64,000 bases of DNA from Spirochaetia bacterium (GTDB lineage: Bacteria; Spirochaetota; Spirochaetia; SZUA-6; Bin103): NCBI GenBank assembly GCA_965208575.1, contig CBDBOV010000005.1, positions 608,001-672,000 of the forward strand, written 5' to 3'. The notes beneath the pieces are model-generated. The model ran no database searches. It saw only the letters and a list, made by a program, of their open reading frames with translations, and was not told the origin of the DNA. Position numbers and translations under genes: made by a program. How positions within the stretch are numbered: position 1 is the first letter of the stretch; each line of letters begins with the position of its first letter. Positions 16,318 through 39,056 of this stretch are shown here, piece by piece.

Positions 16318-16340
16318 TCCGCCTTGAGCTCCGGTCGGTA

Positions 16341-18131
16341 TCAACGGAACTTGACCGTCGTGACATACGAACAGTTGTTCGCCATGTTGGTTTCCCCGCG
16401 CACCGCGTCCACGCACATGACGTAGTAGTACTCCCCGGCGGTCGCCGGTGCCTGAAACCTCACGTTCCCGATGAACGACGGCCCGTTGAGGCGAAAAACC
16501 AACTCCGGCACGTCGACCTCACCCACCTGTGTGCCGGCGGACGGTTTGCTCGTCCGATCCGGCAACAGGAGGAGACGCAACGTCGTCGCCTCGGACGGGC
16601 TCCCTTCGTTCCGCACAGGAACGCCCCACAACCTCGACCCTCCGACAGGCAATTCGCGCGCCACCGCCCACCCGCCGAGATCCATGTCCGGTCGGTAGTG
16701 AGAGACCTCGATCCTCACCGCCGTCGAGCAGGGGTTCGCCGTAGCGGGCGCTCCCGTCGGCACGTCCGCGCACGCACCGTAGTAGTACACCCCCTTGCTT
16801 GACGGAGCCTTTACGTTCGCGTACGATCTGTCGCCCGAGCGCGTCCAACGGCGGGCAAATTGCGAGTCGGACGGTGTGATGGTCGCATCCGTTGAAAGGT
16901 AGAAGCGCAGTGCCGTAGGCGTTGGCGAACCGCCGAATTTGTGCACCACCGCCCACAAGCGGAAGAACCCTCCGATGGCCGGACTGCTCGTGCTCGCCCA
17001 GATCCGGTTGACCACCGGCTCGGGCTCCGGCTCCGGCTCCGGCGCCGTCTCCTGTACCGGCACCGGCTCCGGCGCCGTCTCCTGTACGGGCTCCGGCTCG
17101 GGCGCCGTCTCCTGTACGGGCTCCGGCTCGGGCTCCGTCTCCTGTACGGGCTCCGGCTCGGGCGCCGTCTCCTGTACGGGCTCCGGCTCGGGCGCCGTCT
17201 CCTGTACGGGCTCCGGCTCGGGCTCCGGCTCGGGCTCCGGCTCCGGCTCGGGCTCGGGCTCGGGCTCGGGCTCCGGCTCCGGCTCCGGCTTCGGCACGAT
17301 GACGCGGACTGCTGCCGAACAGTTATTCGCGATGCCGGATTCTCGCGCCACCGGGTCGGCGCAGGCGCCGTAGTAGGAGGTTCCGGGAGTCGACGGGGCG
17401 GTCACCGTGACCGACTCGACCATGCTCGCCGACGCCGCCAGCCCCGCCACCGTGGCGGCGATCACCTCGTCGTCGGATGGCGTGATCGTCTCATCGTCCG
17501 AACGGTAGACGCGCAGCGTCGTCGCAGCGGCATGTGCATCCCCCGCGTTGCGCACCGAGGCCGAGAACGTGAAGCTCGCCCCGGCGGCCGGGCTTTCGTC
17601 GCTCACGGACGGCATCTCCACCACCAGATCCGGCTGCGGCGATGCCGGCTCCGTATCCTGCGCCTGCACGATCACGCGGACTGCTGCCGAACAGTTGTTC
17701 GCGGTGGCGGATTCTCCCGCCACCGGGTCGGCGCAGGCGCCGTAGTAGGAGGTTCCGGGAGTCGACGCCGCCGTCACCGTCACCGTCACGGCGCGGCTCG
17801 CCGAGGCCGCCAGGGCCGCCACAGAGGCGTCGCTCACCTTCTCGTCTACGGCGGGCGTGATCGTCTCATCGTCCGAACGGTAGACGTGCAGCGTCGTGGC
17901 CGCCGCGTCTCCGCTCCCGGTGTTGCGCACCGAGGCGGAGAACATGATGCTCGCCCCGGCGGTCGGGCGGTTGTCGCTCACCTCGGGTTCTTCCACCACC
18001 AGATCCGGATGAGCCGTGCCCGGACCTCCACCGCAACTCGCCAGCGCAATGCATGCCGGCACGACGAGCGCGCTGCACACGACCGACCGCTTGCCGGAGC
18101 GGCGAATGGTCGACTTGGTGTGCCGCGGCAT
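16341..18131 (-). CDS. CARDB/Ig-like repeat lipoprotein G1 (4 domains, PE-rich linker)
   Basis: LASC lipobox; PDLVV...YYGAC...ES..ANNCS domains; ATG overlaps the G2 stop (TGATG). Confidence 0.85.
17015..17295. repeat. Coding tandem repeat: (PE)n hexamers plus 30-bp [10 protein letters not shown] units
   Basis: ggctcc/ggctcg runs and repeated ggcgccgtctcctgtacgggctccggctcg. Confidence 0.95.
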
Positions 18132-19702
18132 CAACGGAATTCGATTGCGGTGGTCCGCGAACAGTTGTTGGACGTGTCCGATTCCCCGGACACCGCGTCG
18201 ACGCACGCGACGTAGTGATACCACCCGGCGGTCGAAGGTGCCTGGAACACCACATACTGCCTGGAGGACGCCGGCCAGGCCTGCGTCACAACCAGCGCCG
18301 GCACGCCGGACATTCCCACCTGCGTGCCGGCGGACGGTGCGCTCGTCCGATGCGGCAACCGGAGCACGCGCAACGTCGTCGCCACGGACGGGCCCCCGGG
18401 GTTGGACACGTCAATTGCCACCCGGAGCGACTCTCCGGGAGGCCGAGGGAGCCACACGGGCCACGAGTTGACCCGCAGGTCCGGCTTGTTGTGCGACACT
18501 TCGACCCTCGTTGCCGGCGAGCAGTTGTTCGTCGTGTCGGACTCCCCTGCGGCCGCGTCCACGCACGCGCCGTAGAAGTACACCCCATTGCTCGACGGCG
18601 TCTTCACGTACACGGGCACGTACACTTCCCGATTGTACCGGTTGGTGCCCAACCACATCCCGCGGGCGGTCAATTGCGTGTCGGACGGCGTGATGGTCGT
18701 GTCCGTTGATCGGTAGAAGCGCAGCGTCGTCTCCAACGCCGTGGTCGGACCGCGGTTGCGTACCTCCGCCGACAACTCGAACACACCGCCGATGGCGGGA
18801 TTGGCGTTGTCCACCCAAGGTCCGGCAAGAATCAGGTCCAACCGCGGCGCCTGTGACGCCCCCGGCGCCCGCGACGCCCCCGGCGTCCTGACCTGCACGT
18901 GCACCGAGCAGTTGTTCGCCGTGTCGGACTCTTTCGCCAGCGCGTGCACGCACGCGCCGTAGTAGTACGTCCGGGAACTCGACGGAGCGCTCAGCTCCAC
19001 CGACGCGACGATGCTCTCCGAGGCCGCCAGGGCCGCCACCGTGGCGTCGCCCACCTGCTTGTCGGCGGGCGTGATCATCGCATCATCCGACCGGTAGAAG
19101 CTCAGCGTCGTGGCCGCCGCGTCTCCGCCCCCGGCGTTGCGCACCGTGGCCCGGAACGTGAAGCTTGTCCCGGCGGGCGGTGCGTCGGAGCTCACGGTGG
19201 GAGGCTCCACCACCAGATCCGGCAGCGGCGCGGCCGGCTCGGTATCCTGCACCGGCACGATGACCCGGACCGTTGCCGAACAGTTGTTCTCGGTACCGGA
19301 TTCTCCCGCCACCGGCTCGACGCATGCACCGTAGTAGGAGGTTCCTGGAGTCGACGCCGCCGTCACCGTCACCGACACGCCGCGGCTCGCCGAGGCCGCC
19401 AGCCCCGCCACCGTGGCGGCGATCACCTCGTCGTCGGATGGCGTGATCGTCTCATCATCCGAACGGTAGACGCGCAGCGTCGTGGCCGCCGCGTCTCCGC
19501 CGCCGGTGTTGCGCACTGTGGCCGAGAACGTGAAGCTTGCCCCGGCGGCCGGGCGGTTCTCGCTCACCAAAGGAGATTCCACCACCAGGTCCGGCTGGCC
19601 GACCCCCGGACCGCCGCGGCAACTCGCCAGTGCAATGCATGCCAGCGCGACAGACGCGCTGAGCGCGACCCACGATCGACTCGGAGCGGTGGAAAACGGC
19701 AT
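18131..19702 (-). CDS. CARDB/Ig-like repeat lipoprotein G2 (4 domains)
   Basis: Starts [10 protein letters not shown]...LASC; TAATG coupling to G3; the longer ORF-track start overlaps G3. Confidence 0.85.
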
Positions 19703-21354
19703 TACCATATGGTGTGAATGACCTTCGAGCAGTTGTCCGTGGTGTCGGACTCGTTGGCGACCGCGTCCACGCATGCGCCGTAGTGGTACGTACCCGTTGC
19801 CGGCGGCGATACTTCGACCCGCCCACCGCGGAAGGTCGGAGCTATTCGCGACTGCGTCTTGGTCAGCGGGCCCACCGCAACGGTGTGAATCTCCGTGTCG
19901 GACGCCGTGAACGTCCGGTCCGTCGACCGGTAGAAGCGGAGCGTGGTCGCCTCTGACGCGCCTCCCACGTTCTCGACATATGCGTGTATCGTGAACGGGG
20001 GTTCGCGAAAGCTTCTCGTAGGCGACCCCCACCCCCCGATTTGCAGGTTCGGCTTGTTGTGCGACACCACCACCTTCACCGGCGCCGAGCAGTTGTTCGT
20101 CGTGTTCGACTCCCCGCGCACCGCGTCCGCGCACATGCGGAAGTAATACGTCCCCAGGGTCGCCGGCACATCCAGGATAGCCCCTGGGTAGGATGTGCCA
20201 TGCGAAGAGAATGGACCCCACCGGTAGCTGTGTACTTCCGTGTCGGACGGGGTGAACGTTGCGTCATCCGAAAGGAAGAAACGAATCACGGTGCGGTCCG
20301 ACAGCCCCCCGTCGTTGCGTAGTATCGCAGACATCTTGAACACCCCTCCGGCGGCCGGAAGGGCAGGGTCGAAGGAGGGCGACGTAATCACCAGGTCCGG
20401 CGCCGACGACTTCCGTAACGTGACCCGCGAGGACGTGGCCGAGCAGTTGTTCGTCGTGTCGGACTCCCCGTCCACCGCGGTCACGCACGCGCCGTAGTAG
20501 TACGTTCCCGGCGACGACGGCGCCACCACGTGGTCCCACACGAGCTTGTCGTCCGCGGGCGCCAGTCCCGACAGTCGTACCGAGAAGACGGCGCTGTCGG
20601 AGGGTGTGATCGTCGAATCCGTCGAAACGTAGAGGCGCGCCGACGTTTCCGCCGCTCCCTTGTCCCCGACGTTGCGCACCCTCGCCGCAACCAGCAGTGC
20701 CTGCCCGGTGACCGCTCTTTCCTCGCTTACCGTAACATATTGCACCACCAGGTCCGGCCCCGGCGCCCCTTGTGTCGGGGCCGGCGGCACCTGCGTCGGC
20801 GTCGACGGCACCTGCGTTGGGGTCGACGCATCGAGCACGATGACCCGTACCGCCGCCGAGCAGTTGTTCGTCGTGTCGGACTTCCCGTCCACCGCGGCTA
20901 TGCACGCGCCGTAGTAGTACGTCCCGGCATCCGCGGGCGCCCGCAGGGTCACCGAGGCGGCGCTCTCGGAGGCCGCCGGTTCCACAATCGTGGCGTCGCC
21001 GACTGCTTCGTCCGCGGGCGTGATCACCGCGTCATGCGACCGGTAGACGCGCAACGTCGTGGTCGCGCCTACCGCACCCGCGCCGCCGATATTGCGCACC
21101 GTGGCCGAGAACGTGAAGCTCGTCCCGGCGGCAGGGCGAGCGTCGGTCACCGAGGGACGTTCCACCACCAGGTCGGGATGGCCGCCGCGGCCGGAGCCCC
21201 CCGCCACCGGACCGCCGCCGCAACCCGCCAGTCCGATGCACAACATCGCGACCAGCGCGCCGAGTGCGGCCGGCTTCCCGCGCGCGGAACGAGCAGACCC
21301 CTCCAATTTCACCGAGCGTGGATCGTCATGCATGCTCATCGGCACCTTCGTCAT
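19702..21354 (-). CDS. CARDB/Ig-like repeat lipoprotein G3 (4 domains)
   Basis: LAGC lipobox; four PDL/PNL...NNCS/DNCS domains; 21-bp PTQVP linker repeats. Confidence 0.85.
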   Translation of the reverse strand: MTKVPMSMHDDPRSVKLEGSARSARGKPAALGALVAMLCIGLAGCGGGPVAGGSGRGGHPDLVVERPSVTDARPAAGTSFTFSATVRNIGGAGAVGATTTLRVYRSHDAVITPADEAVGDATIVEPAASESAASVTLRAPADAGTYYYGACIAAVDGKSDTTNNCSAAVRVIVLDASTPTQVPSTPTQVPPAPTQGAPGPDLVVQYVTVSEERAVTGQALLVAARVRNVGDKGAAETSARLYVSTDSTITPSDSAVFSVRLSGLAPADDKLVWDHVVAPSSPGTYYYGACVTAVDGESDTTNNCSATSSRVTLRKSSAPDLVITSPSFDPALPAAGGVFKMSAILRNDGGLSDRTVIRFFLSDDATFTPSDTEVHSYRWGPFSSHGTSYPGAILDVPATLGTYYFRMCADAVRGESNTTNNCSAPVKVVVSHNKPNLQIGGWGSPTRSFREPPFTIHAYVENVGGASEATTLRFYRSTDRTFTASDTEIHTVAVGPLTKTQSRIAPTFRGGRVEVSPPATGTYHYGACVDAVANESDTTDNCSKVIHTIW

Positions 21355-21449
21355 GGTACAACGAGTTATTGAGGACTTTCAATCACCTCGGCACGAATCG
21401 GAGTCCATATTGTATAGCTTTGCAGGGTAAAAGGTAACTTTCCCGATTG

Positions 21450-21576
21450 CGCGCGGCGCGCCGGGGTCGGCCCAAGGGCGGGATGCGGGAGGAGAGCGAT
21501 GCAGTGTCCGTCCGCTGGGGCGAACCTGGTCCCACGGTCCGGACCGGTTGTCCCCCTATGACGCGGTGAGGGTAGG
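21450..21576 (-). repeat. Short copy of the clpB 3' tail plus downstream intergenic DNA
   Basis: gcgggaggagagcgatg...tcccacggtccggaccggttgtccc..ctatgacgcggtgagggtagg matches about 28100-28224. Confidence 0.85.
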
Positions 21577-21638
21577 TCGTGTCGGACTCCCTTTCCCCCG
21601 CCCGCGTCTCCGCTCCCGGTGTTGCGCACCCGTCGGGG
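21576..21638 (-). pseudogene. Collapsed micro-fragments of a CARDB lipoprotein gene
   Basis: Encodes VRNTGSGDA (DNA matching G1 at about 17903-17931) next to an ESDT fragment. Confidence 0.6.
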
Positions 21639-23327
21639 TTATCTCCGTATGGTGTGGATCACCTTCGAGCAGTTGTCCGAAGTATCGGACTCGTTGGCGA
21701 CCGCGTCCACGCACGCGAAGTAGTAGTGGGTACCCGTTGCCGGCGGCGTTACATCGACTAGCCCACTGTAGAAGGTCGGAGCTGTTCGCGCCTCCGTCTT
21801 GGTCAGCGGGCCCACCGCAACGCTGTGAATCTCCATGTCGGACGCCGTGAACGTCCTGTCCGTCGACCGGTAGAAGCGTAGCGTGGTCGCCCCTGACGGG
21901 CCGCCGCGGTTCTCGACATACGCGTATATCGGGAACGAGGGTCCGTTCCAGTTTTCCACACCCCACGACCCGATTCGCAGGTTCGGCTTGCTGTGCGACA
22001 CTACCACCTTCACCGGCGCCGAGCAGTTGTTCGTCGTGTTCGACTCCCCGCGCACCGCGTCCGCACACATGCGGAAGTAATACGTCCCCAGGGTCGCCGG
22101 CACATCCAGGATATCCGACGGGTAGGACGTGTTATGCGAAGGGAATGGCCCCCACCAGTAGCTGTGTACTTCCGTGTCGGACGGTGTGAACTTTGCGTCA
22201 TCCGAGAGGAAGAAACGAATCACGGTGCCGCGCGACAGCCCCCCGTCGTTGCGTAGTATCGCAGCCATCCCGAACACCCCTCCGGCGGCCGGAAGGGCAG
22301 GGCCGAAGGAGGGCGACGTAATCACCAGGTCCGGCGCCGGCGACTCCCGTACCGCGACCCGCGAGGACGTGGCCGAGCAGTTGTTCGTCGTATCGGACTC
22401 CCCGTCCACCGCGGTCACGCACGCGCCGTAGTAGTACGTTCCCGGCGACGGCGGCGCGACCACGTAGTGCCACACGAGCTTGTCGCGCGCGGGCGCCAGT
22501 CCCGACAGTCGTGCCGAGTAGACGGTGCCGTCGGCGGGGGTGACCGTCGAATCCGTCGAAAGATAAAGGCGCGCCGACGTTTCCGCCGCCGCCTTGTTGC
22601 CAACGTTGCGCACGCTCGCCGTAACCAGCAGTCTTTGCCCGGCGACCACCGTTTCTTCGCTTACCGTAACATATTGCACCACCAGATCCGGCCCCGGCGG
22701 CGCCTGTATCGGGGCCGGCGGCGCCTGTATCGGGGCCGGCGGCTGCTGCGTCGGGGGCGCCGCATCGAGCACGGTGACCCGCACCGCCGCCGAGCAGTGG
22801 TTCCTCGTGTCGGACTCCCCGTCCACCGCGGCTATGCACGCGCCGTAGTAGTACGTCCCGGCATCCGCGGGCGCCCGCACGGTCACCGACGCGGCGCTCT
22901 GCGAGGCCGCCGGTTCCGCGGTCGTGGCGGCGCCGACTTCTTCGTCATCGGGCGTGATCGTCGCATCATCCGACCGGTAGACGCGCAACGTCGTGGCCGG
23001 CGCGCCTGCCGCGCCCGCGCCGTGGTTGTTGTTGCGCACCGTGGCCGAGAACGTGAAGCTCGCCCCGGCGGCAGGGCGGGGGTCGGTCACCGAAGGACGT
23101 TCCACCACCAGGTCCGGATGGCTGTCGCGGCCGGAGCCCCCGGCCACCGGACCGCCGCTGCAACTCGCCAGTCCGATGCACAACACCGCGCCGAGCGCGC
23201 CGAGCGCAACCGGCCTCAAGCCCGCCGAACGAACGGTCGAGTCCAACGTCACCGAGCGTTGATCACCATGCGGCACTCTTGTCAGCATTTCGCCATCGTA
23301 CCGTGGGCATTGAATTCTTGCAATCAC
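21639..23327 (-). CDS. CARDB/Ig-like repeat lipoprotein G4 (4 domains)
   Basis: LASC lipobox; close paralog of G3 and G7; the true start may be the downstream ATG (MLTRVPHG). Confidence 0.85.
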   Translation of the reverse strand: MIARIQCPRYDGEMLTRVPHGDQRSVTLDSTVRSAGLRPVALGALGAVLCIGLASCSGGPVAGGSGRDSHPDLVVERPSVTDPRPAAGASFTFSATVRNNNHGAGAAGAPATTLRVYRSDDATITPDDEEVGAATTAEPAASQSAASVTVRAPADAGTYYYGACIAAVDGESDTRNHCSAAVRVTVLDAAPPTQQPPAPIQAPPAPIQAPPGPDLVVQYVTVSEETVVAGQRLLVTASVRNVGNKAAAETSARLYLSTDSTVTPADGTVYSARLSGLAPARDKLVWHYVVAPPSPGTYYYGACVTAVDGESDTTNNCSATSSRVAVRESPAPDLVITSPSFGPALPAAGGVFGMAAILRNDGGLSRGTVIRFFLSDDAKFTPSDTEVHSYWWGPFPSHNTSYPSDILDVPATLGTYYFRMCADAVRGESNTTNNCSAPVKVVVSHSKPNLRIGSWGVENWNGPSFPIYAYVENRGGPSGATTLRFYRSTDRTFTASDMEIHSVAVGPLTKTEARTAPTFYSGLVDVTPPATGTHYYFACVDAVANESDTSDNCSKVIHTIRR

Positions 23328-23565: not shown

Positions 23566-23583
23566 GGCGTGAAGAGCGGTGAT

Positions 23584-25524: not shown

Positions 25525-26159
25525 CACCATATGGTGTGGATGACCTTCGAGCAGTTGTCCGTGGTGTCGGACTCGTTGGCGACCGCGTCGACGCATGCGC
25601 CGTAGTAGTACGTACCGGTTGACGGCGGTGTCAGGTCGACCAGCGAACCGAAGAACACCGGTGGCGTGCGCGGTACCGTCTTGGCCAGCGGGCCCACCGC
25701 AACGGTGTGAATTACCGTGTCGGACGCCGTGAACGTCTTGTCCGTCGACCGGTAGTAGCGTAGCGTGGTTGCTGTGGAGGCGCCTCCGATGTTCCGCACC
25801 GTTGCAGCGATCGCTAACCCGGGTCTGGTCCGCCGCCGCGAATCCCCAATTTGCAGGTTCGGCTTGGCGTGGGACACCATGACCTTTACCGGCGCCGAGC
25901 AGTTGTTCGTCGTGTTCGACTCCCCGCGCACCGCGTCCGCGCACATGCGGAAGTAATACGTCCCCAGGGTCGCCGGCACATCCAGGATAGCCGACGGGTA
26001 GGATGTGCCATGCGAATAGAATCGACCCCACCGGCCGCCGCAACCCGTCAGTCCGATGCACAACATCGCGACGAGCGCGCCGAGTGCGGCCGGCTTCCAG
26101 CGCGCGGCACGAGCGGCTCCCTCCAATTTCACCGAGCGTGGATCGTCATGCATGCGCAT
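25524..26159 (-). CDS. Internally deleted CARDB lipoprotein G6 (signal fused in frame to the last ~1.4 domains)
   Basis: LTGCGG joined directly to RWGRFYSHGTSYP; about 330 aa missing relative to G3. Confidence 0.75.
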   Translation of the reverse strand: MRMHDDPRSVKLEGAARAARWKPAALGALVAMLCIGLTGCGGRWGRFYSHGTSYPSAILDVPATLGTYYFRMCADAVRGESNTTNNCSAPVKVMVSHAKPNLQIGDSRRRTRPGLAIAATVRNIGGASTATTLRYYRSTDKTFTASDTVIHTVAVGPLAKTVPRTPPVFFGSLVDLTPPSTGTYYYGACVDAVANESDTTDNCSKVIHTIW

Positions 26160-26259: not shown

Positions 26260-26324
26260 TCTAGACTGCAATGCATGCCAGCGCGACCGGCGATCGACTC
26301 GGAGAGGGTGGACGGCGTCGGCGT
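26260..26324 (-). pseudogene. Relic of a G2/G5-type leader
   Basis: ACG in place of ATG after the G7 stop, then degenerate ccgagtcgatcgc...gtcgcgctggcatgcattgcagtctag (VALACIAV*). Confidence 0.6.
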
Positions 26325-28203: not shown

Positions 28204-30846
<2,643 letters not shown>

Positions 30847-30995: not shown

Positions 30996-32582
30996 CTAAT
31001 CTCCATCGGTGTCAGCGAAATCGACCGGGATGTTCCTCGAACAGTTGTTTGCCGTGTTCGATTCCCCGGTCACCGCGTCCACGCACAAGACGTAGTAGTA
31101 CCGTCCGGCGGTCGCAGGTGTCTGAAACTCCACAGCCTGGAAGGAGGACGCAGCCGAATCCTGCGTCACGACCAGCGCCGGCACGGCGACCGCACCCACC
31201 CGCGTACCGGCGGACGGTGCGCTCGTCGAATCCGGCAACAGGATGAGGCGCAGCGTGGTGGCCTTGGACGGGCTCCCGCTGTTCCACACATCCGTACCGA
31301 ACGACAATGTCGCTCCGGTAGGTTGCACATTCGGCACGGTCAACTGGCTGACGAAGAGGTCCGGTATGTGCTGCGACACTTCGACCTTCAACGCCGCCGA
31401 GCAGTTGTTCGTCGTTACCGACTCTCCCGCCACGGGGTCCACGCAGGCGCCGAAGTACAATACCGCCTTGCTCGACGGCGCCGTCACCCACCCGCGCACG
31501 GTAACCGAGCGCAAGCTCGACAACGGCCACAACCAGACGCGGTCCAACTTCGTGTCCGACCGCGTCACGGTCGCATCCGTTGAACGGTAAAAGCGCAGCG
31601 CCGTCGGCCCCGCCGTCGCACTGCCGAGATTGACCACTTCGGTCTCGAACTCGAGTCGGCCCCCGATGACCGGCTTGCCGGCGCTCACCCGAAGCGGGTT
31701 GACTATCAGATCCGGCCGTGGCCCCGACACCGGAACCTGCGCCGCCTGCACCGCGACCTGCACCGGAGCCGAGCAGTTGTTCGCCGTGTCGGACTCCTCC
31801 GCCACCGCGTCCACGCACGCGCCGTAGTAGTACGTCCCGGAACTCGACGGAGCGCTCAGCTCCACCGACGCAGGGCTGCTCGTCGAGGCCGCCAGCGCCG
31901 GCACCGCGGCGGCGCCCACCTGCTCGTCGGAGGACGTGATCGCCGCATCGTCCGAACGGTAGACGCTCAGCGTCGTCGCCGCCGCGTCTCCGTCCCCGGC
32001 GTTGCGTACCGTGACCGAGAACGAGAAGCTCGCCCCGGCGGCCGGGCTGGCGTCGCTCACGGCGGGTAATTCCACCACCAAGTCCGGCTGCGGCGACGCC
32101 GGCTCCAGATTCTGCGCCTGCACGTCGACTCGGACCGCTGCCGAACAGTTGTTCGCGGTGTCGGATTCTCCCGCCACCGGATCGGCGCATGCGCCGTAGT
32201 AGGAGGTTCCGGGACTCGACGGCGCCGCCACCTCCACCGACGAGGCGCCGCTCGCCGAAGCCGCCAACGCCGGCACCTTGGCGGTGCCCACCTGCTCGCC
32301 GGCGGGCGTGATCGTCTTATCATCCGAACGGTAGACGCGCAGCGTCGTCGTCGCCGCGTTCCCGCGCCCGGCGTTGCGCACCGTGGCCGAGAACGTGAAG
32401 CTCGTCCCTGTGGCCGGGCGGTGGTCGCTCACCGCCGGAGACTCCACCACCAGGTCCGGATGAGCCGCGCCTGGACCTCCGCCGCAGTTCGCTATTGCAA
32501 TGCATGCCAGCGCGGCGAGCGCGCTGCACGCGACCGGCTGCTTGCGGGAGTAACGCGCAGTCGACCTGGTGTTGCACGGCAT
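30996..32582 (-). CDS. CARDB/Ig-like repeat lipoprotein G8 (4 domains)
   Basis: GGAGGAG RBS, MPCNTRST...IANC lipobox, ends FADTDGD. Confidence 0.85.
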   Translation of the reverse strand: MPCNTRSTARYSRKQPVACSALAALACIAIANCGGGPGAAHPDLVVESPAVSDHRPATGTSFTFSATVRNAGRGNAATTTLRVYRSDDKTITPAGEQVGTAKVPALAASASGASSVEVAAPSSPGTSYYGACADPVAGESDTANNCSAAVRVDVQAQNLEPASPQPDLVVELPAVSDASPAAGASFSFSVTVRNAGDGDAAATTLSVYRSDDAAITSSDEQVGAAAVPALAASTSSPASVELSAPSSSGTYYYGACVDAVAEESDTANNCSAPVQVAVQAAQVPVSGPRPDLIVNPLRVSAGKPVIGGRLEFETEVVNLGSATAGPTALRFYRSTDATVTRSDTKLDRVWLWPLSSLRSVTVRGWVTAPSSKAVLYFGACVDPVAGESVTTNNCSAALKVEVSQHIPDLFVSQLTVPNVQPTGATLSFGTDVWNSGSPSKATTLRLILLPDSTSAPSAGTRVGAVAVPALVVTQDSAASSFQAVEFQTPATAGRYYYVLCVDAVTGESNTANNCSRNIPVDFADTDGD

Positions 32583-32795: not shown

Positions 32796-33362
32796 CTAAT
32801 CTCCGTCGGTGTCGGCGAACTCGACCGGGATGTTCCTCGAACAGTTGTTGGCCGTGTTGGATTCCCCGGTCACCGCGTCCACGCACATGACGTAGTAGTA
32901 CTGTCCGGCGGTCGCAGGTGTCTGAAACTCCACAGCCGGGGAGGAGCACGCCTCCGAATCCTGCGTCACGACCAGCTTCGGCACGGCGGCCGCACCCACC
33001 CGCGTACCGGCGGACGGTGCGCTCGTCGAACCCGGCAACAGGATGAGGCGCAGCGTGGTCGCCTTGGACGGGCTTCCGCTGTTGCACACATCTGTACCGA
33101 ACAACAACGTCGCTCCGGTAGGCTGCACCGTGTTGACTGCCAGCGTGGCGACAAAGAGGTCCGGTATGTGGTGCGACACTTCGACCTTCAACGCCGCCGA
33201 GCAGTTGTTCGTCGTTACCGACTCTCCCGCCACGGTGTCCACGCAGGCGCCGAAGTACAATACCGCTTTTTTCGACGGCGCCGTCAACGACGAGCGCACT
33301 GTTACCAAGGGCAAGCCCAAGCCCAAATTCCGGCCCGGCAACGGCCACAACCAGACGGTGGC
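32796..33362 (-). pseudogene. 3' half of CARDB lipoprotein G9 (split by transposon)
   Basis: ATVWLWP...FADTDGD continues in frame from DTEFA at about 37670; paralog of G8. Confidence 0.9.
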
Positions 33363-33497
33363 TAAGAGCGCTCGGGCTAATTGATGGGACGTTGATCGAG
33401 CAATTCGAGGGACAGGATTGGACAGGAAGGAGCGAGGGGTGGGTGTTTCCCGTGCTTCCCGTTTCCGCGATCGGTAAGGAAGGGAAACGGGGAACAG

Positions 33498-34522
33498 CTA
33501 TTGCACGGCGGACCAGCCATGCGGTGTGCGGGTGATGCGACCGTCAGTTTCGAGAGTGCGCAGTGCGGCGGAGAGCGACTGGTCACGGACGCGCAGAGTC
33601 GCACGCAGGGCGCGATGGGGCATGGGGCCGGCGCTGCGCAGGTGAGCGACGATGCGCTCGGCGAAGGTCGAGGCGGTGGGTGGCGGCGGCGCAGGCGGGT
33701 CATCCGGGTTGTGAGACTCGGATGAACCGGAAGGTCCTGGCAGTCGCGGGAGAGTTCGGTGTGTTCCTGCAGCTCGAGACGAACCAGAGGGGGTTGGCCA
33801 GCGCGGGGGTGATCGGTGGCCAACAGATGGAGCGACAGAGGCGCCGGCGGAGGTGCGGCACGATGCTCGACGGTGAGCCGCAGGCGGTTGGGCCGGCCGG
33901 ACAGATAGAGGTTGGAATCGCCCCAGGCCCAGAAGTCGCCGGAGCCGCGCAGCGCCTGGCCGGGAACGGCGGCGCCGCTCTTGCGGGCATGGTGGACGAG
34001 GAGGACGGCGGCGTTGAAGGTGCGTGCCAACTCACGCAGTGCGGCGAGAATGGCGGCGACTTGACGGGCGTCATTTTCATCGGCGCGCTGGAGGCGTACG
34101 AATGGATCGAGGATCAACAGCTTGGGATGCTGGCCGGCGAGGGTAAGGTGGAGCCGGTGCAGGTCCTGGGGATGGTCGAGGCGGAGCGCGGTGTCGAGGA
34201 TGAGCCTGACATCGAGTGCGGCGAAGTCGGCGCCGCGCGCGTGCGCGATGCCCTGGATGCGACGCTTGACCTGATGCGGGGAGTCTTCAGCGGCGAGGAC
34301 GAGCACCGGCCCGGGACAGGGGACCGGGAAGCGGCCCAGGCACGGACGCCCGGAGGCGACCGCGACTGCCAACTCCAACGCCAAGAATGTCTTGCCACTT
34401 TTCGGGGCTCCCCCGATGAGACCGACCGCCGAAGCGCCCCACAACGGCTCGATGAGCCAGTGCGGCTGGTCTGCGGGGAGGTCCTGAAGGTGAGCGGCGC
34501 GGACCACACGCAGTGCTGCCAT
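33498..34522 (-). CDS. AAA_25/RepA-like ATPase with a C-terminal winged helix in another frame (frameshifted)
   Basis: WLIEPLW, GAPKSGKT, LILDPF, LVHHARK, LRGSGD; wHTH FAERIVAHLRS...LRTLETDGRITRTPHGW* lies in the -1 frame and ends at 33498. Confidence 0.75.
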
Positions 34523-34524
34523 GG

Positions 34525-35364
34525 TCAGCGCGGGCGGCGGGTGGCGCGGGCGGGCGGCGCCGGTGAGAACAGCTCGAAGTAGAGCTTCTCGTCGATTTGG
34601 GGCGACTCGTTCCGGGCTGCGGCGACCAGCAACTCGGCCGCCGTGGTCAACAGCACGCGGTAGTTGCCGAGGGCATGTTCGCACAGGGTGACGATGAGTT
34701 GGTCGGTCATCAGAGCGGAGTTGCCGGCGGCGTTCAGGAGGTGCCTGAGGGCGTCCTGGAGCTGCTCGGCAGAGGCCGGCTGGAGGGCGAGCCTGGTGCG
34801 GACGCGGTTGCCGAGGGGCACCAGGTCCTGGTGGCGCAGCTTGTCCTGCAAGCGCAAGTCACCGGCCAGCACCACACTCAGGAGCTGGCGCGAATCGAAC
34901 CGCGTGCTGCTGAGCAGACGCAGTTCAGCGGCCACGGGAGGAGCGAGTTCCTGCGCCTCGTCGACCAGCAGCAGGGGGCGCAGCAGGGTGGTGTCGAGGT
35001 GCAAGGTCCAGCGCTCACGCAACGCCTTGGCGCCACCCCAGCGATTGTGGGGTCGCAACGGGACGCCGAACAGGTCGCCCAACTCGCGGTAGAAGTCGGC
35101 CACGTTGGCCTGCGGTCGGGAGATGGCGCCGACCACCAGATCCGGCTCGGCGGCGAGCCGCTCACTGAGCAGGCGCAAGGTGACGCTCTTGCCGCTGCCG
35201 GACTCGCCGGTGATCAGCGCGAAGCCACCTTCGCGCACCAGCGCGAACTGGATGCGCCACAGGAAGTTCTCCACCTCGGGTGCGATCCACAGCGCCTCGG
35301 TCGGCAGCTCGGGTGCGAACGGGTTGAACTTCAGCCCGTAGAGAGCGAGCAATTTGCGGTTCAT
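34525..35364 (-). CDS. ExeA/AAA_22 family ATPase (TnsC/MuB-like transposition helper)
   Basis: YGLKFNPF, GESGSGKS, LLVDEAQ; ATGA overlap with the transposase. Confidence 0.88.
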   Translation of the reverse strand: MNRKLLALYGLKFNPFAPELPTEALWIAPEVENFLWRIQFALVREGGFALITGESGSGKSVTLRLLSERLAAEPDLVVGAISRPQANVADFYRELGDLFGVPLRPHNRWGGAKALRERWTLHLDTTLLRPLLLVDEAQELAPPVAAELRLLSSTRFDSRQLLSVVLAGDLRLQDKLRHQDLVPLGNRVRTRLALQPASAEQLQDALRHLLNAAGNSALMTDQLIVTLCEHALGNYRVLLTTAAELLVAAARNESPQIDEKLYFELFSPAPPARATRRPR

Positions 35365-36827
35365 CGGAGATCCTCCTCGGGGTTCTCTGGTTTGGGGATG
35401 TAGGCCGGCGGCAGGCCGGTGGCCGCGTAGTCGGCAAGCAGCTTCTGCAACAGTGGTGCGACTCCTGACGGCGCCGCGGGTGCGGTCGCGGCATCGGTCT
35501 GTCGGCGACGGCGCTGGCCGCCGGCGTTGTCGACCTTGTTGACCGGATGGATGGTCGCCACCTCGGCGCCGGTGCGCTCATCGACCACCGCGGCCTGACT
35601 GAGATCCCAGCGCGCATAGCGCACCGCCACGCGTGCCAGGTGATGCAGCCGGCCCGGCAGCTCGAAGCGCACGCCGTCGAGAGTCAGGGTGCCGTCACTG
35701 CGGCGCTGCGTGCGCCGCACCTTGACCCGAAAGGCGCGCCGCAGCTCCGGCGCCGCCGGGCAGTCGCGCAGCACGTTGTTCGACTCCAGGAACGAAGCCA
35801 GCGGCGTCTGCCCGGTCTCGGAGTGCACGCGTCGGTGGTACTCCAACTCGATCCAGGCCACGGTGGCTTGGTTGAGCCGCTCCAAGGTCAGATCAGGCAC
35901 CCCTTCCAGCATCGCCAACAGACGCGTCTCGATCGGCACCCAGAACACTTCCTGCTTGGCGTTCTGATAGGGCGAATAGGGCAGCGTCAACTCCTGCAGC
36001 ACGCCCAACTGAGCCAACCCTTCTTCGATCTCGGCCGCCGTCTCGGCGCCGCCGTTGTCGGTCATCAGGGCACGCGGCAGGCCGCGCTTGAGGAACGCCT
36101 GCCCGAGCCCGTGGACGAAGCTCTCCGCATCCTCCTGCAGGTACCACTGCGCGTGGCAGCACAGCCGCGACTTGTCGTCCAGGACCGCGAACAACTGCGG
36201 CCTGACCCACTGTCCCTGGCGGGTCAGCACCTCCCGCGAGGCATGATGAAAGTCGGCATGGAACAAGCCGCCGACGTACTCGGCTTCGTAGCTGCGCACC
36301 TCGCGGTGCTCCAGGCGCCAGGCGGCTTTGCGGGCGCCGGCGGTGTGCCGTACCCGGACGCGCTTGCGACGGTACAACCCTTGCGTCTTCATCCACCGCC
36401 GCACCACCGCGTAGGACGGCACCCGCCCCAACTCCTCCTGCTGCGTGGCCAGCACCTTCAAGTTGTCGTGATGCAACTGGTAGCTCCAGCCGGGGTGGTC
36501 CTGGTGCTGCTGGCGGAGCACCACGCGCAGCGCCGCCGACACGCTCGGATGCCCGCCCGCATCGCTGCGTACCTGGTTGCGCAGCGCCGCCACCGGATCC
36601 CGCTCCTGCCGGGCGCGGTAGTACCAGCGTTCGATCGTCGACACTCCCAGCCTGATCGGTCGCTTGCTCAGCGGGTGCTGGTACTCCCGCGCGGCGAGCT
36701 CCCGCAGCGCCTGCTGCAGTTCGCCGCACGCCGGTGGCGCGGCCAACAGCGGCCCGATCACCGAAAACCGGAATCGTGCCCACTGATCGCGGTCCGAGAC
36801 CTCTCGTTGTCTGTCTGATGCTTCCAT
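35361..36827 (-). CDS. DDE transposase (rve core, Mu-transposase-like C-terminus)
   Basis: N-terminal HTH (STIERWYY); FHADFHH, LMTDNGG, NAKQEVFW; RRSDGTLTLDGVRFE. Confidence 0.92.
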   Translation of the reverse strand: MEASDRQREVSDRDQWARFRFSVIGPLLAAPPACGELQQALRELAAREYQHPLSKRPIRLGVSTIERWYYRARQERDPVAALRNQVRSDAGGHPSVSAALRVVLRQQHQDHPGWSYQLHHDNLKVLATQQEELGRVPSYAVVRRWMKTQGLYRRKRVRVRHTAGARKAAWRLEHREVRSYEAEYVGGLFHADFHHASREVLTRQGQWVRPQLFAVLDDKSRLCCHAQWYLQEDAESFVHGLGQAFLKRGLPRALMTDNGGAETAAEIEEGLAQLGVLQELTLPYSPYQNAKQEVFWVPIETRLLAMLEGVPDLTLERLNQATVAWIELEYHRRVHSETGQTPLASFLESNNVLRDCPAAPELRRAFRVKVRRTQRRSDGTLTLDGVRFELPGRLHHLARVAVRYARWDLSQAAVVDERTGAEVATIHPVNKVDNAGGQRRRRQTDAATAPAAPSGVAPLLQKLLADYAATGLPPAYIPKPENPEEDLR

Positions 36828-36934
36828 TTCCCCCGGTTCCTGCTGCTCGCCCCAAATCTGGCCAGCGCAGCGCCCCGGGGATAGATCACAACTCGTGCGG
36901 GAGCTTCAGCGCGGCTTGCATCTTCTGCGGGAAC

Positions 36935-37522
36935 TCACCGGTCCATCACCGAGCCCGCTCCGGCGGTCGCCGGCGCCAGATAGTGCAACGCTGCCACCAG
37001 CCGCTCGGCGGCGTCGGTCTGCTCAAACCGCTCCAGCAGCGAGGCAGGCAGCGACTCCTCATCTACCGGCGACGCAAACCGCCCCCGCCCGGCGCGCCAG
37101 AACGAACTGTTCGGGAACTCCTCCAGCCACCACTGGCGCCAGCGCTTCAGCGTATGCCGGCTCAACGTCGGCGCCTGCAACTGCTCGCGCAACTGTTCTG
37201 TTCGCTTCTGCGTGATCCCGTTGTGCAGGCTGAACGCCAGCACAAACACCGGCCCCAGGTACACCCGCCGGCCCCAGAACCGCAGCGCCGGCGGCGTCAC
37301 CCGCTTGCGGCACCCCGCCGCCGCGCAACAGAAACTCGCCCGCTGCTCATACTTCGCCGGCAATTCCCTCGGCCCGCCGCGCGGCTTGCGTTCATAGCGC
37401 GCCGAGTGCAGCACACCCGCGCAGTGCGGACAGCCCTTGCTCCGCACCCCCCGGGCCACGTCCTCGTCGATTCTCAGCAGCAGACGATGAAAGCTGGTAT
37501 CTCCCAGCAGTCTGTGTAACAC
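36935..37522 (-). CDS. Cys-rich Zn-finger/HTH protein, first gene of the transposon (DUF6431-like)
   Basis: AAGGAG RBS plus GTG; CPHC...CC...CRKR; TLKRWRQWW. Confidence 0.75.
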   Translation of the reverse strand: MLHRLLGDTSFHRLLLRIDEDVARGVRSKGCPHCAGVLHSARYERKPRGGPRELPAKYEQRASFCCAAAGCRKRVTPPALRFWGRRVYLGPVFVLAFSLHNGITQKRTEQLREQLQAPTLSRHTLKRWRQWWLEEFPNSSFWRAGRGRFASPVDEESLPASLLERFEQTDAAERLVAALHYLAPATAGAGSVMDR

Positions 37523-37525
37523 TGA

Positions 37526-37597
37526 TGGTCTCCTTGCCTTTCGATTACAAGGAGACCACCCCCTCACGGGCTTGTTGGTCAAGCTCCGTGAGGGGGT
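37526..37597. promoter_or_regulatory. Two tandem hairpins in the transposon leader; one sequesters the RBS
   Basis: tggtctccttg/caaggagacca (11-bp perfect IR, 37526-37558) and accccctcacgg/ccgtgagggggt (12-bp IR, 37558-37597) followed by tcttttcccttc. Confidence 0.7.
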
Positions 37598-37667
37598 TCT
37601 TTTCCCTTCCCTCAATCAGCTCGACCCAGAATCACGCTTATCCCATCGATATTCGTGGCGCTGCTGA

Positions 37668-38698
37668 GCGAACTCCGTGTCCGACCGCGTCACGGTCGCA
37701 TCCGTTGAACGGTAGAAGCGCAGCGCCGTCGGCCCCGCGGTCGCACTGCCGCGGTTGACCACTTCGGTTTCTAACGTGAATCGGCCCCCGATGGCCGGCT
37801 TGCCGGCGCTCACCCGAAGCCGGTTGACTACCAGGTCCGGCCGTGGCCCCGACACCGGAACCTGCGCCGCCTGCACCGCGACCTGCACCGGAGCCGAGCA
37901 GTTGTTCGCCGTGTCGGACTCCTCCGCCACCGCGTGCACGCACGCGCCGTAGTAGTACGTCCCGGAACTCGACGGAGCGCTCAGCTCCACCGACGCAGGG
38001 CTGCTCGTCGAGGCAGCCAGCGCCGGCACCGCGGCGGCGTCCACCTGCTCGCCGGAAGGTGTGATCGTCTCATCATTCGAACGGTAGACGCGCAGCGTCG
38101 TCGCCGCCGCGTCTCCGTCCCCGGCGTTGCGTACCGTGACCGAGAACGAGAAGCTCGCCGCGGCGGCCGGGCTGGCGTCGCTCACGGCGGGTGATTCCAC
38201 CACCAGGTCCGGCCGCGGCGCCGTATCCTGCACCTGCACGATGACTCGGACCGTTGCCGAACAGTTGTTCGCGGTGTCCGATTCTCCCGCCACCGGCTCG
38301 ACGCACCCGCCGTAGTAGGAGGTTCCGGGACTCGACGGCGCTGTTACCTGCACCGACGCGACGCGGCTTGCCGAAGCCGTCAGCCCCGTCACCGTGGCGT
38401 CGCCCACCTGCTCGTCGGAGGGCGTGATCGCCTCATCGTCCGAACGGTACACGCGCAGCGTGGTCGCCGCCGCGCTCCCGCGCCCGGCGTTGCGCACGGT
38501 GGCCGAGAACGTGAAGCTCGTCCCGGCGGTCGTGCGGTGGTCGCTCACCGCGGCATCTTCCACCACCAAGTCGGGATGAGCCGCGCCCGGGCCTCCGCCG
38601 CAGTTCGCCAGTGCAATGCATGCCAGCGCGGCCAGCGCGCTGCACGCGACCGGCTGCTTGCGGGAGTAACGCGCAGTCGACCTGGTGTTGCACGGCAT
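37668..38698 (-). pseudogene. 5' half of CARDB lipoprotein G9
   Basis: MPCNTRST...LANC leader nearly identical to G8; breaks after RSDTEFA. Confidence 0.9.
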
Positions 38699-38984
38699 TG
38701 TCCACTCCTCCGGTTCGGCGCGACCGTACCGCCGGCGGCCCCGCCGCCGGCGGTCGCCAGCGGCGAGGTGCCACCACGTTTCTTCATCGTACAGCGTATC
38801 CGATAAACTTTCCATGAACTATCAATCATGAAACAGGCAGAAATCGCATCTTGTGAGGGAGATTCGCGTCTTCTCCCCGGAGTCGTCCCGAGCGACGGGT
38901 GGACGAGCCGGGCAGGACGCGAGAGGTGAGAGGTGAGCGGATCTGTCCCGCCGCAACCAGGGGCCCGCTGTCAGCGCAGGCTCC

Positions 38985-39056
38985 ACGTCACCGCCTACCC
39001 GCGCTCCGCCGTGCGCGAGATGTCTACCCGCCTAATCTCCGTCGGTGTCGGCGAAC
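38985..39056 (-). pseudogene. 3'-terminal relic of another G8/G9-type gene (FADTDGD*) with its downstream flank
   Basis: acgtcaccg...ccgccgtgcgc.agatgt...cccgcctaatctcc.tcggtgtc matches about 30949-31020. Confidence 0.75.

What the first reader, a model, noticed from the sequence alone, without database searches (positions are those of the whole stretch)
16341..39056. Array of nine variable Ig-like (CARDB) lipoproteins around clpB: candidate diversified surface-receptor repertoire
Seen: nine co-oriented paralogs (G1-G9) plus three relics. Each has a lipobox and up to five ~110-aa domains sharing a framework (PDL...V/LRN.G...T.LRFY.S.D.T.T.SD...YYGACVD...ES.T.NNCS) that includes a conserved Cys pair. 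Domains next to the lipid anchor are conserved and Ala/Ser/Thr-rich. Distal domains keep the framework but vary strongly between framework blocks and are rich in W/R/Y/F (e.g. [60 protein letters not shown]). Known: spirochaetes use paralogous variable lipoprotein families (Vls/Vsp, Lig). Inference: a stalk-plus-variable-tip, antibody-like family for host or ligand binding or phage/immune evasion. I do not recognise it as a described system.
Basis: partly seen in the sequence, partly recalled or inferred. Interest (0 to 1): 0.85.

Follow-up and report, generated by a model that had tools for sequence, protein, structure and literature searches.

The report
Tandem family of CARDB Ig-like lipoproteins
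A probably sponge-associated spirochaete carries nine side-by-side genes for membrane-anchored proteins built from Ig-like domains; their anchor-side halves are kept alike by gene copying and their outer domains diverge fast on one half of the fold, which makes this an uncharacterised example of a familiar kind of fast-evolving surface-protein family.

Summary
On the minus strand, 16341-38815, there are nine lipobox ORFs made of CARDB (PF07705) domains on both sides of clpB. Seven are full length (4-5 domains), one is an internally deleted 211-aa form, and one is split by a 4.3-kb transposon. There is also a 3'-end relic at 38985-39056. 36 of the genome's 44 domains of this type lie here.

The "conserved stalk" is largely the product of gene conversion: synonymous divergence is low in domains 1-2 and high in domains 3-4. 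Variation maps to strands A, B, C', E and their loops (omega about 1.2, not significantly above 1). Strands C, F, G and their loops are constrained (omega 0.46). I found no diversity-generating retroelement and no silent cassettes.

The array is missing from the clpB locus in four congeners. In a fifth it sits beside the same left flank with different gene content. The domain subtype is widespread: 16,016 cluster representatives.

Verdict: a real birth-and-death family of Ig-like lipoproteins, probably surface-exposed, whose ligand is unknown. It is a new member of a known kind, not a new system. The scan had noted comparable Ig-like or CARDB arrays on other DNA (e1-5110615, e1-1063453), but no look-alike sequence.

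The parts
16341..18131 (-). G1: lipoprotein with 4 CARDB domains and a roughly 90-aa Pro/Glu-rich linker between domains 2 and 3
   Evidence: The linker is a 30-bp repeat of 8.6 copies at 17029-17287. Domain 2 is closer to domain-1 types: 84-85.5% nt identity against 74-79%.
18131..19708 (-). G2: lipoprotein with 4 CARDB domains. Its stop overlaps the G1 start by 1 nt. This is the protein modelled with AF2.
19702..21354 (-). G3: lipoprotein with 4 CARDB domains of the G3/G4/G6 subfamily. Its end overlaps the G2 start by 7 nt. The exact start codon is uncertain.
   Evidence: A sigma70-like site lies at 21382-21353.
21639..23288 (-). G4: lipoprotein with 4 CARDB domains, 80% identical to G3
23584..25530 (-). 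G5: lipoprotein with 5 CARDB domains
25524..26159 (-). Gs: 211-aa ORF, a G3-type gene with an in-frame internal deletion (lipobox joined to half a domain plus one full domain). It is joined to G5 exactly as G3 is joined to G2.
26324..28000 (-). G6: lipoprotein with 4 CARDB domains. The 21-bp linker repeat has 5.1 copies at 27371-27478.
28204..30846 (-). clpB: a conserved housekeeping gene that the array flanks. It is not part of the family.
   Evidence: Pfam. Orthologues are 87-92% identical in four congeners.
30996..32582 (-). G7: lipoprotein with 4 CARDB domains. Its distal domains are orthologous to H7 of genome G006.
32796..33350 (-). 3' part of G8: the end of domain 3 plus domain 4
33358..37670 (-). 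Transposon inserted in domain 3 of G8 (boundaries approximate). It carries genes for an rve integrase with HTH_32, an AAA_22 ATPase and an AAA_25 protein.
   Evidence: Pfam. Single copy in the genome. Junctions were compared with G7.
37671..38698 (-). 5' part of G8: signal peptide, domains 1 and 2, and the first half of domain 3
38985..39056 (-). Relic: the last codons and downstream sequence of a lost further family gene
   Evidence: 86% identical to 30949-31019; 39028-39056 is identical to 32792-32820. Sequence read.

Best explanation
WHAT IT IS. A lineage-specific tandem family of lipoproteins that evolves by gene birth and death. The proteins are probably on the outer membrane or cell surface of a probably sponge-associated Spirochaetaceae bacterium.

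HOW EACH PROTEIN IS BUILT.
- Each gene encodes a Sec signal peptide with a lipobox. Lgt and LspA, both present in the genome, would leave an acylated Cys followed by a Gly-rich tether.
- Next come two A/S/T-rich CARDB Ig-like domains that act as a spacer. Some genes add Pro-rich repeat linkers of variable length.
- Two or three divergent CARDB domains follow. In these, one half of the sandwich (strands A, B, C', E and their loops) is enriched in aromatic residues and Arg, and differs from paralog to paralog.
- Every domain keeps a Cys pair (strand F and the F-G loop), presumably a disulfide. Strands C and F are conserved at every position.

HOW DIVERSITY ARISES. Ordinary recombination explains it: tandem duplication of gene units, gene conversion that homogenises the 5' halves, domain replacement, deletion, and near-neutral or mildly diversifying change on the variable half of the distal domains. 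No programmed mechanism is needed.

MOST LIKELY ROLE. A repertoire of adhesin-like or ligand-binding envelope proteins exposed to a changing partner (host matrix, glycans or phage).

SHOWN: gene structure, fold, location of the variation, the recombination history and the turnover of the locus.

INFERRED: lipidation, surface exposure, the disulfide, and any binding function.
For: ARCHITECTURE.
- CARDB is present in 8 of 8 proteins scanned.
- A lipobox is present in 19 of 19 genes of this genome and G006, and in Gs.
- LspA and Lgt are present.
- The AF2 model shows four 7-strand sandwiches, pLDDT 85.9. The single distal domain has pLDDT 95.2 and matches 3IDU (Z 11.7, rmsd 2.2, 101 residues aligned) and 2L0D (Z 11.4).
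- Both Cys are invariant in 32 of 32 domains.

GENE CONVERSION.
- Median dS among the G006 paralogs is 0.157 (d1), 0.157 (d2), 0.415 (d3) and 0.377 (d4). The H3-H5 pair gives 0.010, 0.082, 0.427 and 0.345.
- Identical tracts reach 522 nt in G006 and 45-100 nt in the window. All lie in proximal or signal-peptide parts.
- In the domain tree, distal domains pair across species (G7.3-H7.3 support 100; G1.3-H3.3 support 89), while proximal domains cluster within a genome.

WHERE THE VARIATION SITS.
- Entropy over 683 domains from 117 unrelated proteins peaks at profile positions 6-24, 31-37 and 57-80.
- With structural elements defined from the AF2 model, omega in 14 non-overlapping distal pairs is A 1.14, A-B 1.25, C' 1.63, C'-E 1.10 and E 1.84, against C 0.40, F 0.34 and F-G 0.53. 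Grouped, this is 1.19 against 0.46.
- Flanking genes give omega 0.07 and 0.19.

TURNOVER.
- No family domain lies within 20 kb of clpB in 4 of 4 congeners that have the orthologue.
- G006 has nine different genes beside the same left flank.
- The unit junction is duplicated, and there are a deletion form, a transposon-split gene and a relic.
- A second study's run, labelled sponge metagenome, holds pieces of the distal parts at 91-96% identity.
Against: - Omega of about 1 on the variable half, and dN about equal to dS over the whole G7-H7 orthologue pair, fit relaxed constraint as well as diversifying selection. The excess of pN over pS is not significant (p 0.09).
- There is no expression evidence: no RNA run was listed. 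There is also no evidence on localisation or ligand.
- That strands A, B, C', E form one continuous face is inferred from the usual Ig topology. I had no model coordinates to check it.
- Strands C and F are conserved at every position across the family, so the functional surface could be the conserved one.
- The tree is the quick version, with few columns and many unresolved forks.
- NG86 estimates in a 67% GC genome are rough. Some of the 'sister' pairs sit in unresolved polytomies.
- The run that best holds the array is probably the source sample, so it is not independent support for the assembly.
Confidence: 0.6

Rival explanations
1. A germline recognition repertoire under diversifying selection. 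The variable half of the distal domains would be a paratope-like binding surface. Each paralog would recognise a different host, prey or phage ligand, and the homogenised 5' halves would serve as recombination handles that reshuffle the distal modules.
For: - Variation clusters on A/B/C'/E, with omega 1.1-1.8 there.
- W/Y/F is enriched about five-fold in the distal variable segment.
- Old distal lineages are kept across species while the 5' halves are homogenised.
- The locus differs between close relatives.
Against: - Omega is not significantly above 1 (p 0.09).
- In the family-wide entropy split, only the C-terminal domain type reaches 1.53, on 229 codons.
- No ligand, expression or localisation data exist.
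- One of the nine genes is deleted internally and one is transposon-split, which fits weak selection on individual copies.
Confidence: 0.2
2. A structural or coat protein family whose function lies on the conserved face. The Tyr/Arg-rich C-F-G sheet and the disulfide-stapled F-G loop would bind a common partner or pack into a layer. The other half would vary only because it is unconstrained. The many copies would reflect dosage or neutral duplication.
For: - Strands C and F have near-zero entropy at consecutive positions in 683 domains.
- Omega is 0.34-0.40 there.
- Omega on the variable half is close to 1, the neutral expectation.
- The same domain is used as a repeated spacer in giant proteins with up to 24 copies that also carry LRR, fn3, cadherin and subtilase modules.
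Against: - A purely neutral face would not be expected to shift composition from A/S/T-rich to aromatic/Arg-rich specifically in distal domains.
- Distinct distal types persist across species.
Confidence: 0.15
3. A programmed antigenic-variation or hypermutation system: a diversity-generating retroelement target, or Vls/Vsp-like conversion of silent cassettes into one expression site.
For: - The family consists of paralogous lipoproteins in a spirochaete.
- There is evidence of gene conversion.
- Reverse transcriptases exist in the genome.
Against: - The 7 RT hits lie on other contigs or about 470 kb away on the same contig. Five are identical 474-aa copies.
- No copy of any array segment lies outside the three family loci, so there is no template repeat.
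- All nine ORFs have their own start, signal peptide and lipobox, so none is a silent cassette.
- Conversion acts on the conserved half, not on the variable half.
- No recombinase or invertible element lies in the array apart from the transposon in G8.
Confidence: 0.03
4. An assembly artefact: collapsed or mis-joined repeats from several strains of a metagenome.
For: - The genome has 5.75% estimated contamination.
- Short-read contigs break at the conserved proximal parts.
Against: - The distal parts are unique and are covered by pieces with 0 differences (though probably from the source sample).
- An independent genome, G006, has a comparable nine-gene array beside the same flank.
- A second study holds diverged versions.
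- Gene junctions are orderly, with start-stop overlaps.
Confidence: 0.02

Closest known systems
Leptospira Lig proteins (LigA/LigB), spirochaetal surface lipoproteins made of tandem Ig-like domains
   Same: Both are lipoproteins built from a string of Ig-like domains. In Lig, the upstream region and the first six and a half domains are nearly identical between paralogs, the remaining domains are unique, and recombination among lig genes is reported (passages read in PMC7821625). That is the same pattern of a homogenised proximal part and a divergent distal part.
   Different: Lig domains are Big_2. No Big_2 match was found in the 8 array proteins at E <= 0.01. Lig has 2-3 dispersed genes with 12-13 domains, not nine tandem genes with 4-5. 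The Lig ligands are known host proteins; here nothing is known.
VARTIG modules of Thermococcales (Makarova et al. 2021, PMC8416519)
   Same: Secreted proteins with CARDB-like Ig domains whose C-terminal Ig domain is hypervariable through recombination, in hypervariable and recently acquired loci (abstract and passages read).
   Different: VARTIG is archaeal. It has one large protein followed by variable small downstream genes, an organisation like that of polymorphic toxin systems. Here the family is bacterial, the proteins are lipoproteins, the array is a tandem set of paralogs, and there are no downstream partner genes.
Solved CARDB domains: PF1109 of Pyrococcus furiosus (3IDU, 2KL6) and MA_4588 of Methanosarcina acetivorans (2L0D)
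   Same: The fold matches: Z 11.7 and 11.4, rmsd 2.2-2.3 A, 22-24% identity over 101-104 residues of the most distal domain.
   Different: These are single structural-genomics domains of unknown function. A sequence profile of the array's domains does not reach them at E <= 10. The Cys pair and the fully conserved C and F strands define a distinct subtype.
   Same: Both are paralogous lipoprotein families in a spirochaete, with gene conversion in their history.
   Different: From recall, not checked here: those proteins are helical, and they switch by copying silent cassettes into one expression site. Here the proteins are Ig-like, and all nine genes have their own start and signal peptide.
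Bacterial alpha-2-macroglobulins and complement C3/C4/C5 macroglobulin-domain strings
   Same: Whole-protein Foldseek hits, E about 1e-10 to 1e-12 (4u48, 4rtd, 5hcc and others). Both are rods of similar Ig-like sandwiches.
   Different: TM-scores are only 0.15-0.23 and identity 8-14%. The array proteins have no thioester or bait-region domain. The resemblance is at the level of the domain fold only.

Membership tests
Pfam CARDB (PF07705), E-set Ig-like clan | Sequence match above the curated gathering score | tested here: met
   8 of 8 proteins scanned score 73-130 bits against a cut-off of 22.7. In the whole-genome scan, 17 of the 25 hits lie in the array.
Pfam CARDB (PF07705), E-set Ig-like clan | Seven-strand beta-sandwich superposable on a solved CARDB domain, including the divergent distal domains | tested here: met
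   AF2 model of G2 domain 4, pLDDT 95.2. Matches: 3IDU Z 11.7, 2L0D Z 11.4; Foldseek 3IDU TM 0.66.
Bacterial lipoproteins (Lgt/LspA substrates) | Signal peptide with a positively charged n-region, a hydrophobic h-region and a lipobox ending in Cys | tested here: met
   Motif found in 8 of 8 window genes and 11 of 11 genes of G006, and in Gs. G7 and G8 have Asn at position -1. That spirochaetes accept Asn there is recalled, not tested.
Bacterial lipoproteins (Lgt/LspA substrates) | The processing enzymes are present in the genome | tested here: met
   LspA PF01252, 115.6 bits. Lgt PF01790, 215.6 bits.
Bacterial lipoproteins (Lgt/LspA substrates) | Actual acylation and surface exposure | not testable with these tools
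   Needs proteomics, globomycin sensitivity or protease shaving.
Diversity-generating retroelement targets | A reverse transcriptase with a template repeat that matches the variable region | tested here: not met
   None of the 7 RT hits is near the array. blastn of the array against the genome finds copies only at the three family loci: 177 of 861 hits lie outside the array, all on C1 near 50 kb or C2 at 210-214 kb.
Cassette-based antigenic variation (Vls/Vsp type) | Silent cassettes without a promoter or start, plus one expression site | tested here: not met
   All nine ORFs carry a start, a signal peptide and a lipobox. The only fragments are the transposon-split half of G8 and a 72-nt relic.
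Leptospira Lig family | Big_2 (PF02368) domain repeats | tested here: not met
   No PF02368 match in the 8 array proteins at E <= 0.01.
VARTIG module | A large Ig-domain protein followed by variable small membrane-protein genes, in Thermococcales | tested here: not met
   The organism is bacterial. The array genes abut each other or clpB, with gaps from -7 to 793 nt. No small partner genes are present.

The most novel reading that the evidence does not exclude
The array is a germline-encoded recognition repertoire. The aromatic/Arg-rich A-B-C'-E half of the distal CARDB domains would be a diversified binding surface under diversifying selection. The gene-converted 5' halves would act as recombination handles that let distal modules be exchanged between genes and strains. 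This would give a sponge symbiont a set of receptors, or decoys, matched to host matrix molecules or phages.
Probability: 0.2. Interest if true: 0.7.

Novelty: new member of a known kind. Interest (0 to 1): 0.42.

Why it matters
How uncultured sponge symbionts attach to, are recognised by, or hide from their host and its phages is poorly understood. This locus offers a concrete, testable candidate. It is a fast-evolving family of Ig-like lipoproteins that varies between close relatives. It belongs to a large domain subtype (16,016 cluster representatives), and every public name I saw for it reads 'hypothetical protein' (4 named members among the 10 clusters looked up).

It is also a clean example of two processes working side by side in one gene family: concerted evolution of one half of a gene, and long-term retention of divergent modules in the other half. 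It does not reveal a new mechanism.

Tried and rejected
- DGR or hypermutation: rejected.
- Sequence search of solved structures: the full-length profile found nothing at E <= 0.01. The domain profile found only 2kut_A, at E 0.038 over 40 residues. Fold comparison was needed instead.
- ESM Atlas: the window protein is not held. The homologue P0010 gave only generic CARDB clusters, best scores 0.91.
It gave only a rough taxonomic hint: the best hit is 65% identical, in a Spirochaetaceae MAG.
- Literature, full-text searches of the held library:
  - 'CARDB' + 'sponge' as whole words: 2 listings (one work, preprint and journal version), unrelated.
  - 'CARDB domain': 13 papers, none on bacterial lipoprotein arrays judging by titles and abstract starts. 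Passages were read only in PMC8416519.
  - The word-start searches were swamped by 'cardboard'.
  - The sponge/Spirochaetes/Ig-like search gave nothing on this family, judging by the listing only.
- Expression: no RNA holder was listed.
- Laid contigs are short and break in the repeats, so they cannot test the assembly across the array.
- The careful tree search did not finish in 300 s. The quick tree was used.
- Earlier scan notes: no look-alike sequence.
- The transposon in G8 is not the eight-copy Tn6049-like element of note e1-4371052. It is single copy.
- Pfam on the neighbours of the G006 arrays and on the two other family genes of this genome gave no functional clue.
- Complex prediction was not used, because no partner is known.
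Full report
WHAT IS THERE

The window (G000 contig C5, 608001-672000, about 67% G+C) carries nine ORFs on its minus strand between 16341 and 38815. Each starts with a basic n-region, a hydrophobic stretch and a lipobox (L-A/T-S/G/N-C) followed by GG.

With starts placed at the signal peptides, the genes are:
- G1 16341-18131
- G2 18131-19708
- G3 19702-21354
- G4 21639-23288
- G5 23584-25530
- Gs 25524-26159
- G6 26324-28000
- clpB 28204-30846, which is not a family member
- G7 30996-32582
- G8, whose 5' part is 37671-38698 and whose 3' part is 32796-33350

G8 is interrupted within domain 3 by an element of about 4.3 kb (about 33358-37670). The element encodes an rve integrase, an AAA_22 ATPase and an AAA_25 protein, and is single copy in the genome.

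Gs is an intact 211-aa ORF. In it the lipobox is fused in frame to the second half of one domain plus a full C-terminal domain.

A 72-nt relic of the 3' end of a further gene lies at 38985-39056.

Its 'relics' are the other half of G8 and this fragment.

DOMAINS AND FOLD

Pfam CARDB passes its cut-off in 8 of 8 proteins scanned. A profile built from the domains finds 44 hits in the six-frame translation of the whole genome. Of these, 36 are in this array, 7 are in one 1102-aa protein on contig C2, and 1 is on C1. G5 has five domains and the other full-length genes have four. Both cysteines are invariant in 32 of 32 aligned domains.

AlphaFold2 on mature G2 with a 25-sequence alignment gives four seven-strand sandwiches (mean pLDDT 85.9). 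Confidence is low only in the tether and the linkers. The most distal domain, folded alone, has pLDDT 95.2.

That domain superposes on the solved CARDB domains 3IDU (Z 11.7, rmsd 2.2 A, 101 residues, 24% identity) and 2L0D (Z 11.4). Foldseek agrees, with 3IDU at TM 0.66. The whole protein resembles strings of macroglobulin or Ig domains only generically, with TM 0.15-0.23. Sequence profiles do not reach any solved CARDB structure.

ORGANISM AND DISTRIBUTION

- ClpB is at best 65% identical to that of a Spirochaetaceae MAG.
- Close homologues of the array proteins (65-78% identity, same four-domain size) exist on other metagenome contigs. Those that carry names are 'hypothetical protein' of Spirochaetaceae or Gammaproteobacteria MAGs.
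- A run labelled sponge metagenome, from a second study, holds pieces of the distal parts at 91-96% identity. Examples are 18191-18542 with 32 differences, 23522-24364 with 33, and 24339-25351 with 78.
- Among 40 relatives searched with G3, 10 have a match: 3 of 10 in the same genus, 7 of 13 in the sister genus, and 0 of 17 in the other families of the order.
- The domain subtype itself is common. A profile of 32 domains hits 16,016 cluster representatives at E <= 1e-3 and 2,930 at E <= 1e-30. These include giant proteins with up to 24 copies. In 8 of the 10 giants scanned, the domain is combined with LRR, fn3, cadherin, subtilase, Calx-beta or F5/8-C modules.

THE LOCUS IS A VARIABLE ISLAND

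Four congeners have the clpB orthologue (87-92% identity). None has a family domain within 20 kb on either side.
- Window 16311-28245 (G1 to G6) corresponds to roughly 0-4 kb in those genomes.
- Window 30899-44048/44752 (G7, G8, a DruA-like ORF, an IS66 transposase and an HNH ORF) corresponds to 29-43 bp.

A fifth congener, G006, has nine genes (H1-H9, 35 domains) beside the same left flank. Window 12897-17025 matches it at 89.8% identity. G006 has two more genes on another contig.

Only some distal domains have clear cross-species partners.

Within the window, the junction Gs-G5 repeats the junction G3-G2: the same 7-nt overlap and nearly the same upstream 40 nt. The upstream regions of G7 and G8 are 97.6% identical. 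The array therefore grew by duplication of multi-gene units.

Sigma70-like sites fall upstream of G6, Gs, G4 and G3. These are 4 of the 6 sites found, against 1.9 expected. This suggests the transcription units [G6], [Gs-G5], [G4] and [G3-G2-G1]. It rests on a consensus match only.

WHY THE PROXIMAL HALF IS CONSERVED

Synonymous divergence (Nei-Gojobori, own script) is low in domains 1-2 and high in domains 3-4.
- Among the G006 paralogs the median dS is 0.157, 0.157, 0.415 and 0.377 for d1 to d4.
- For the pair H3-H5 it is 0.010, 0.082, 0.427 and 0.345.
- For G1, G2, G5 and G7 of the window, pooled dS is 0.30 in the proximal domains against 0.62 in the distal ones.
- Exact shared tracts reach 522 nt in G006 and 45-100 nt in the window. 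All lie in proximal domains or the signal-peptide region.
- G1's second domain is closer to domain-1 types: 84-85.5% nt identity against 74-79%.

In the quick domain tree, distal domains pair across species while proximal domains cluster within a genome.

The 'conserved stalk' is therefore largely concerted evolution by gene conversion.

WHERE THE VARIATION SITS, AND WHETHER IT IS SELECTED

My first partition of the columns was made after seeing the alignment and is circular. I replaced it with two independent ones.

(a) Entropy over 683 domains from 117 database proteins, excluding this genome's own. It is near zero at PDL, VRN.G, the C strand, the F strand with its Cys, and the F-G loop motif with the second Cys. 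It is high at profile positions 6-24, 31-37 and 57-80.

In 14 non-overlapping distal pairs, omega is 0.37, 0.87 and 1.19 for the low, middle and high entropy thirds. The C-terminal domain type alone reaches 1.53. In proximal pairs the values are 0.24, 0.73 and 0.76.

(b) Structural elements from the AF2 model. Distal omega per element:
- A 1.14, A-B 1.25, B 0.85, B-C 0.90
- C 0.40, C-C' 0.48
- C' 1.63, C'-E 1.10, E 1.84
- E-F 0.35, F 0.34, F-G 0.53, G 0.59

Grouped, A/B/C'/E with their loops give 1.19 (pN against pS, Fisher p 0.09). C/F/G with their loops give 0.46 (p 8e-9).

Two flanking genes compared between the same two genomes give omega 0.07 and 0.19.

The variation is thus clearly localised and evolves at about the neutral rate or slightly above. 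Positive selection is suggested but not shown.

The distal variable segment is enriched in W/Y/F (11.4% against 2.1%) and depleted in A/S/T (26.8% against 47.5%).

That A, B and E form one sheet, with C' at an edge, follows from the usual Ig topology.

NO PROGRAMMED DIVERSIFIER

The seven reverse-transcriptase hits are far from the array, and five are identical copies. No segment of the array has a copy outside the three family loci. All nine ORFs have their own start and signal peptide. The coding tandem repeats are confined to the linkers: 30 bp x 8.6 copies in G1, and 21 bp x 3.0, 2.4 and 5.1 copies in G3, G4 and G6.

INTERPRETATION

The best reading is an ordinary birth-and-death family of Ig-like lipoproteins, so far undescribed in the literature I could search. 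It is analogous to the Leptospira Lig proteins, whose proximal domains are nearly identical between paralogs and whose distal domains are unique (PMC7821625, passages). It is also analogous to the archaeal VARTIG proteins, in which a CARDB-like C-terminal Ig domain is hypervariable through recombination (PMC8416519, abstract and passages).

Lipidation is plausible: the motif is present, and so are Lgt and LspA. Surface exposure, the disulfide and any binding function are inferences.

Two functional readings remain open:
- The variable aromatic-rich half is a diversified binding face.
- The invariant Tyr/Arg-rich C-F-G side is the functional surface, and the rest is simply free to vary.

LIMITS

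- There is no expression, localisation or ligand evidence.
- The dN/dS estimates are rough, from a few related sequences.
- The tree is the quick version.
- The assembly across the repeats is supported only indirectly.
- Supplementary files of the two papers were not looked at.

Noticed in passing
window 33358-37670: A transposon of about 4.3 kb (rve integrase with HTH_32, AAA_22 ATPase, AAA_25 protein) is inserted in domain 3 of G8. It has sub-terminal imperfect inverted repeats and is single copy in the genome, so it differs from the eight-copy Tn6049-like element noted earlier for this genome.
   Followed up: partly
window 39526-43721: A DruA-family (Druantia, PF14236) ORF at 39526-40422 overlaps the end of an IS66 transposase gene at 40412-42040. 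A 550-aa ORF with a C-terminal HNH motif follows at 42069-43721. All lie inside the 13-kb stretch that congeners lack.
   Followed up: no
window 43265-47900: This stretch is 98-99% identical to two contigs of genome G006, whereas the rest of both flanks is 88-93% identical. This points to a recent exchange between the two lineages or a mixed-population bin.
   Followed up: partly
window 28204-30846 (clpB) and genome G006: The clpB orthologue was not found in G006; only a 48% paralog turned up. The G006 array contains relatives of genes from both sides of clpB. Direct-repeat arrays flanking clpB could delete it by recombination, or the gene may simply be unassembled (G006 has 180 contigs and 95% completeness).
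   Followed up: no
window 17029-17287; 20760-20828; 22694-22743; 27371-27478: The linkers between domains are tandem repeats whose copy number differs between paralogs: 30 bp x 8.6 copies in G1 (Pro/Glu-rich), and 21 bp x 3.0, 2.4 and 5.1 copies in G3, G4 and G6. These could vary the length of the spacer.
   Followed up: no
database cluster of P0112: One cluster at 90% identity holds members labelled Spirochaetaceae bacterium and Gammaproteobacteria bacterium. This is either a binning error or recent transfer of a family member between phyla.
   Followed up: no
profile positions 39-46 and 85-93 of the domain (e.g. window 18491-18838): Strands C and F are conserved at every consecutive position across 683 domains, not only at the alternate inward-facing positions. 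The outer face of that sheet therefore seems to be constrained too.
   Followed up: partly
L099 (G006:C59) 1-1245: The ORF just upstream of the G006 array has a weak autotransporter beta-domain match (PF03797, E 1.9e-08). No counterpart lies next to the window's array.
   Followed up: no
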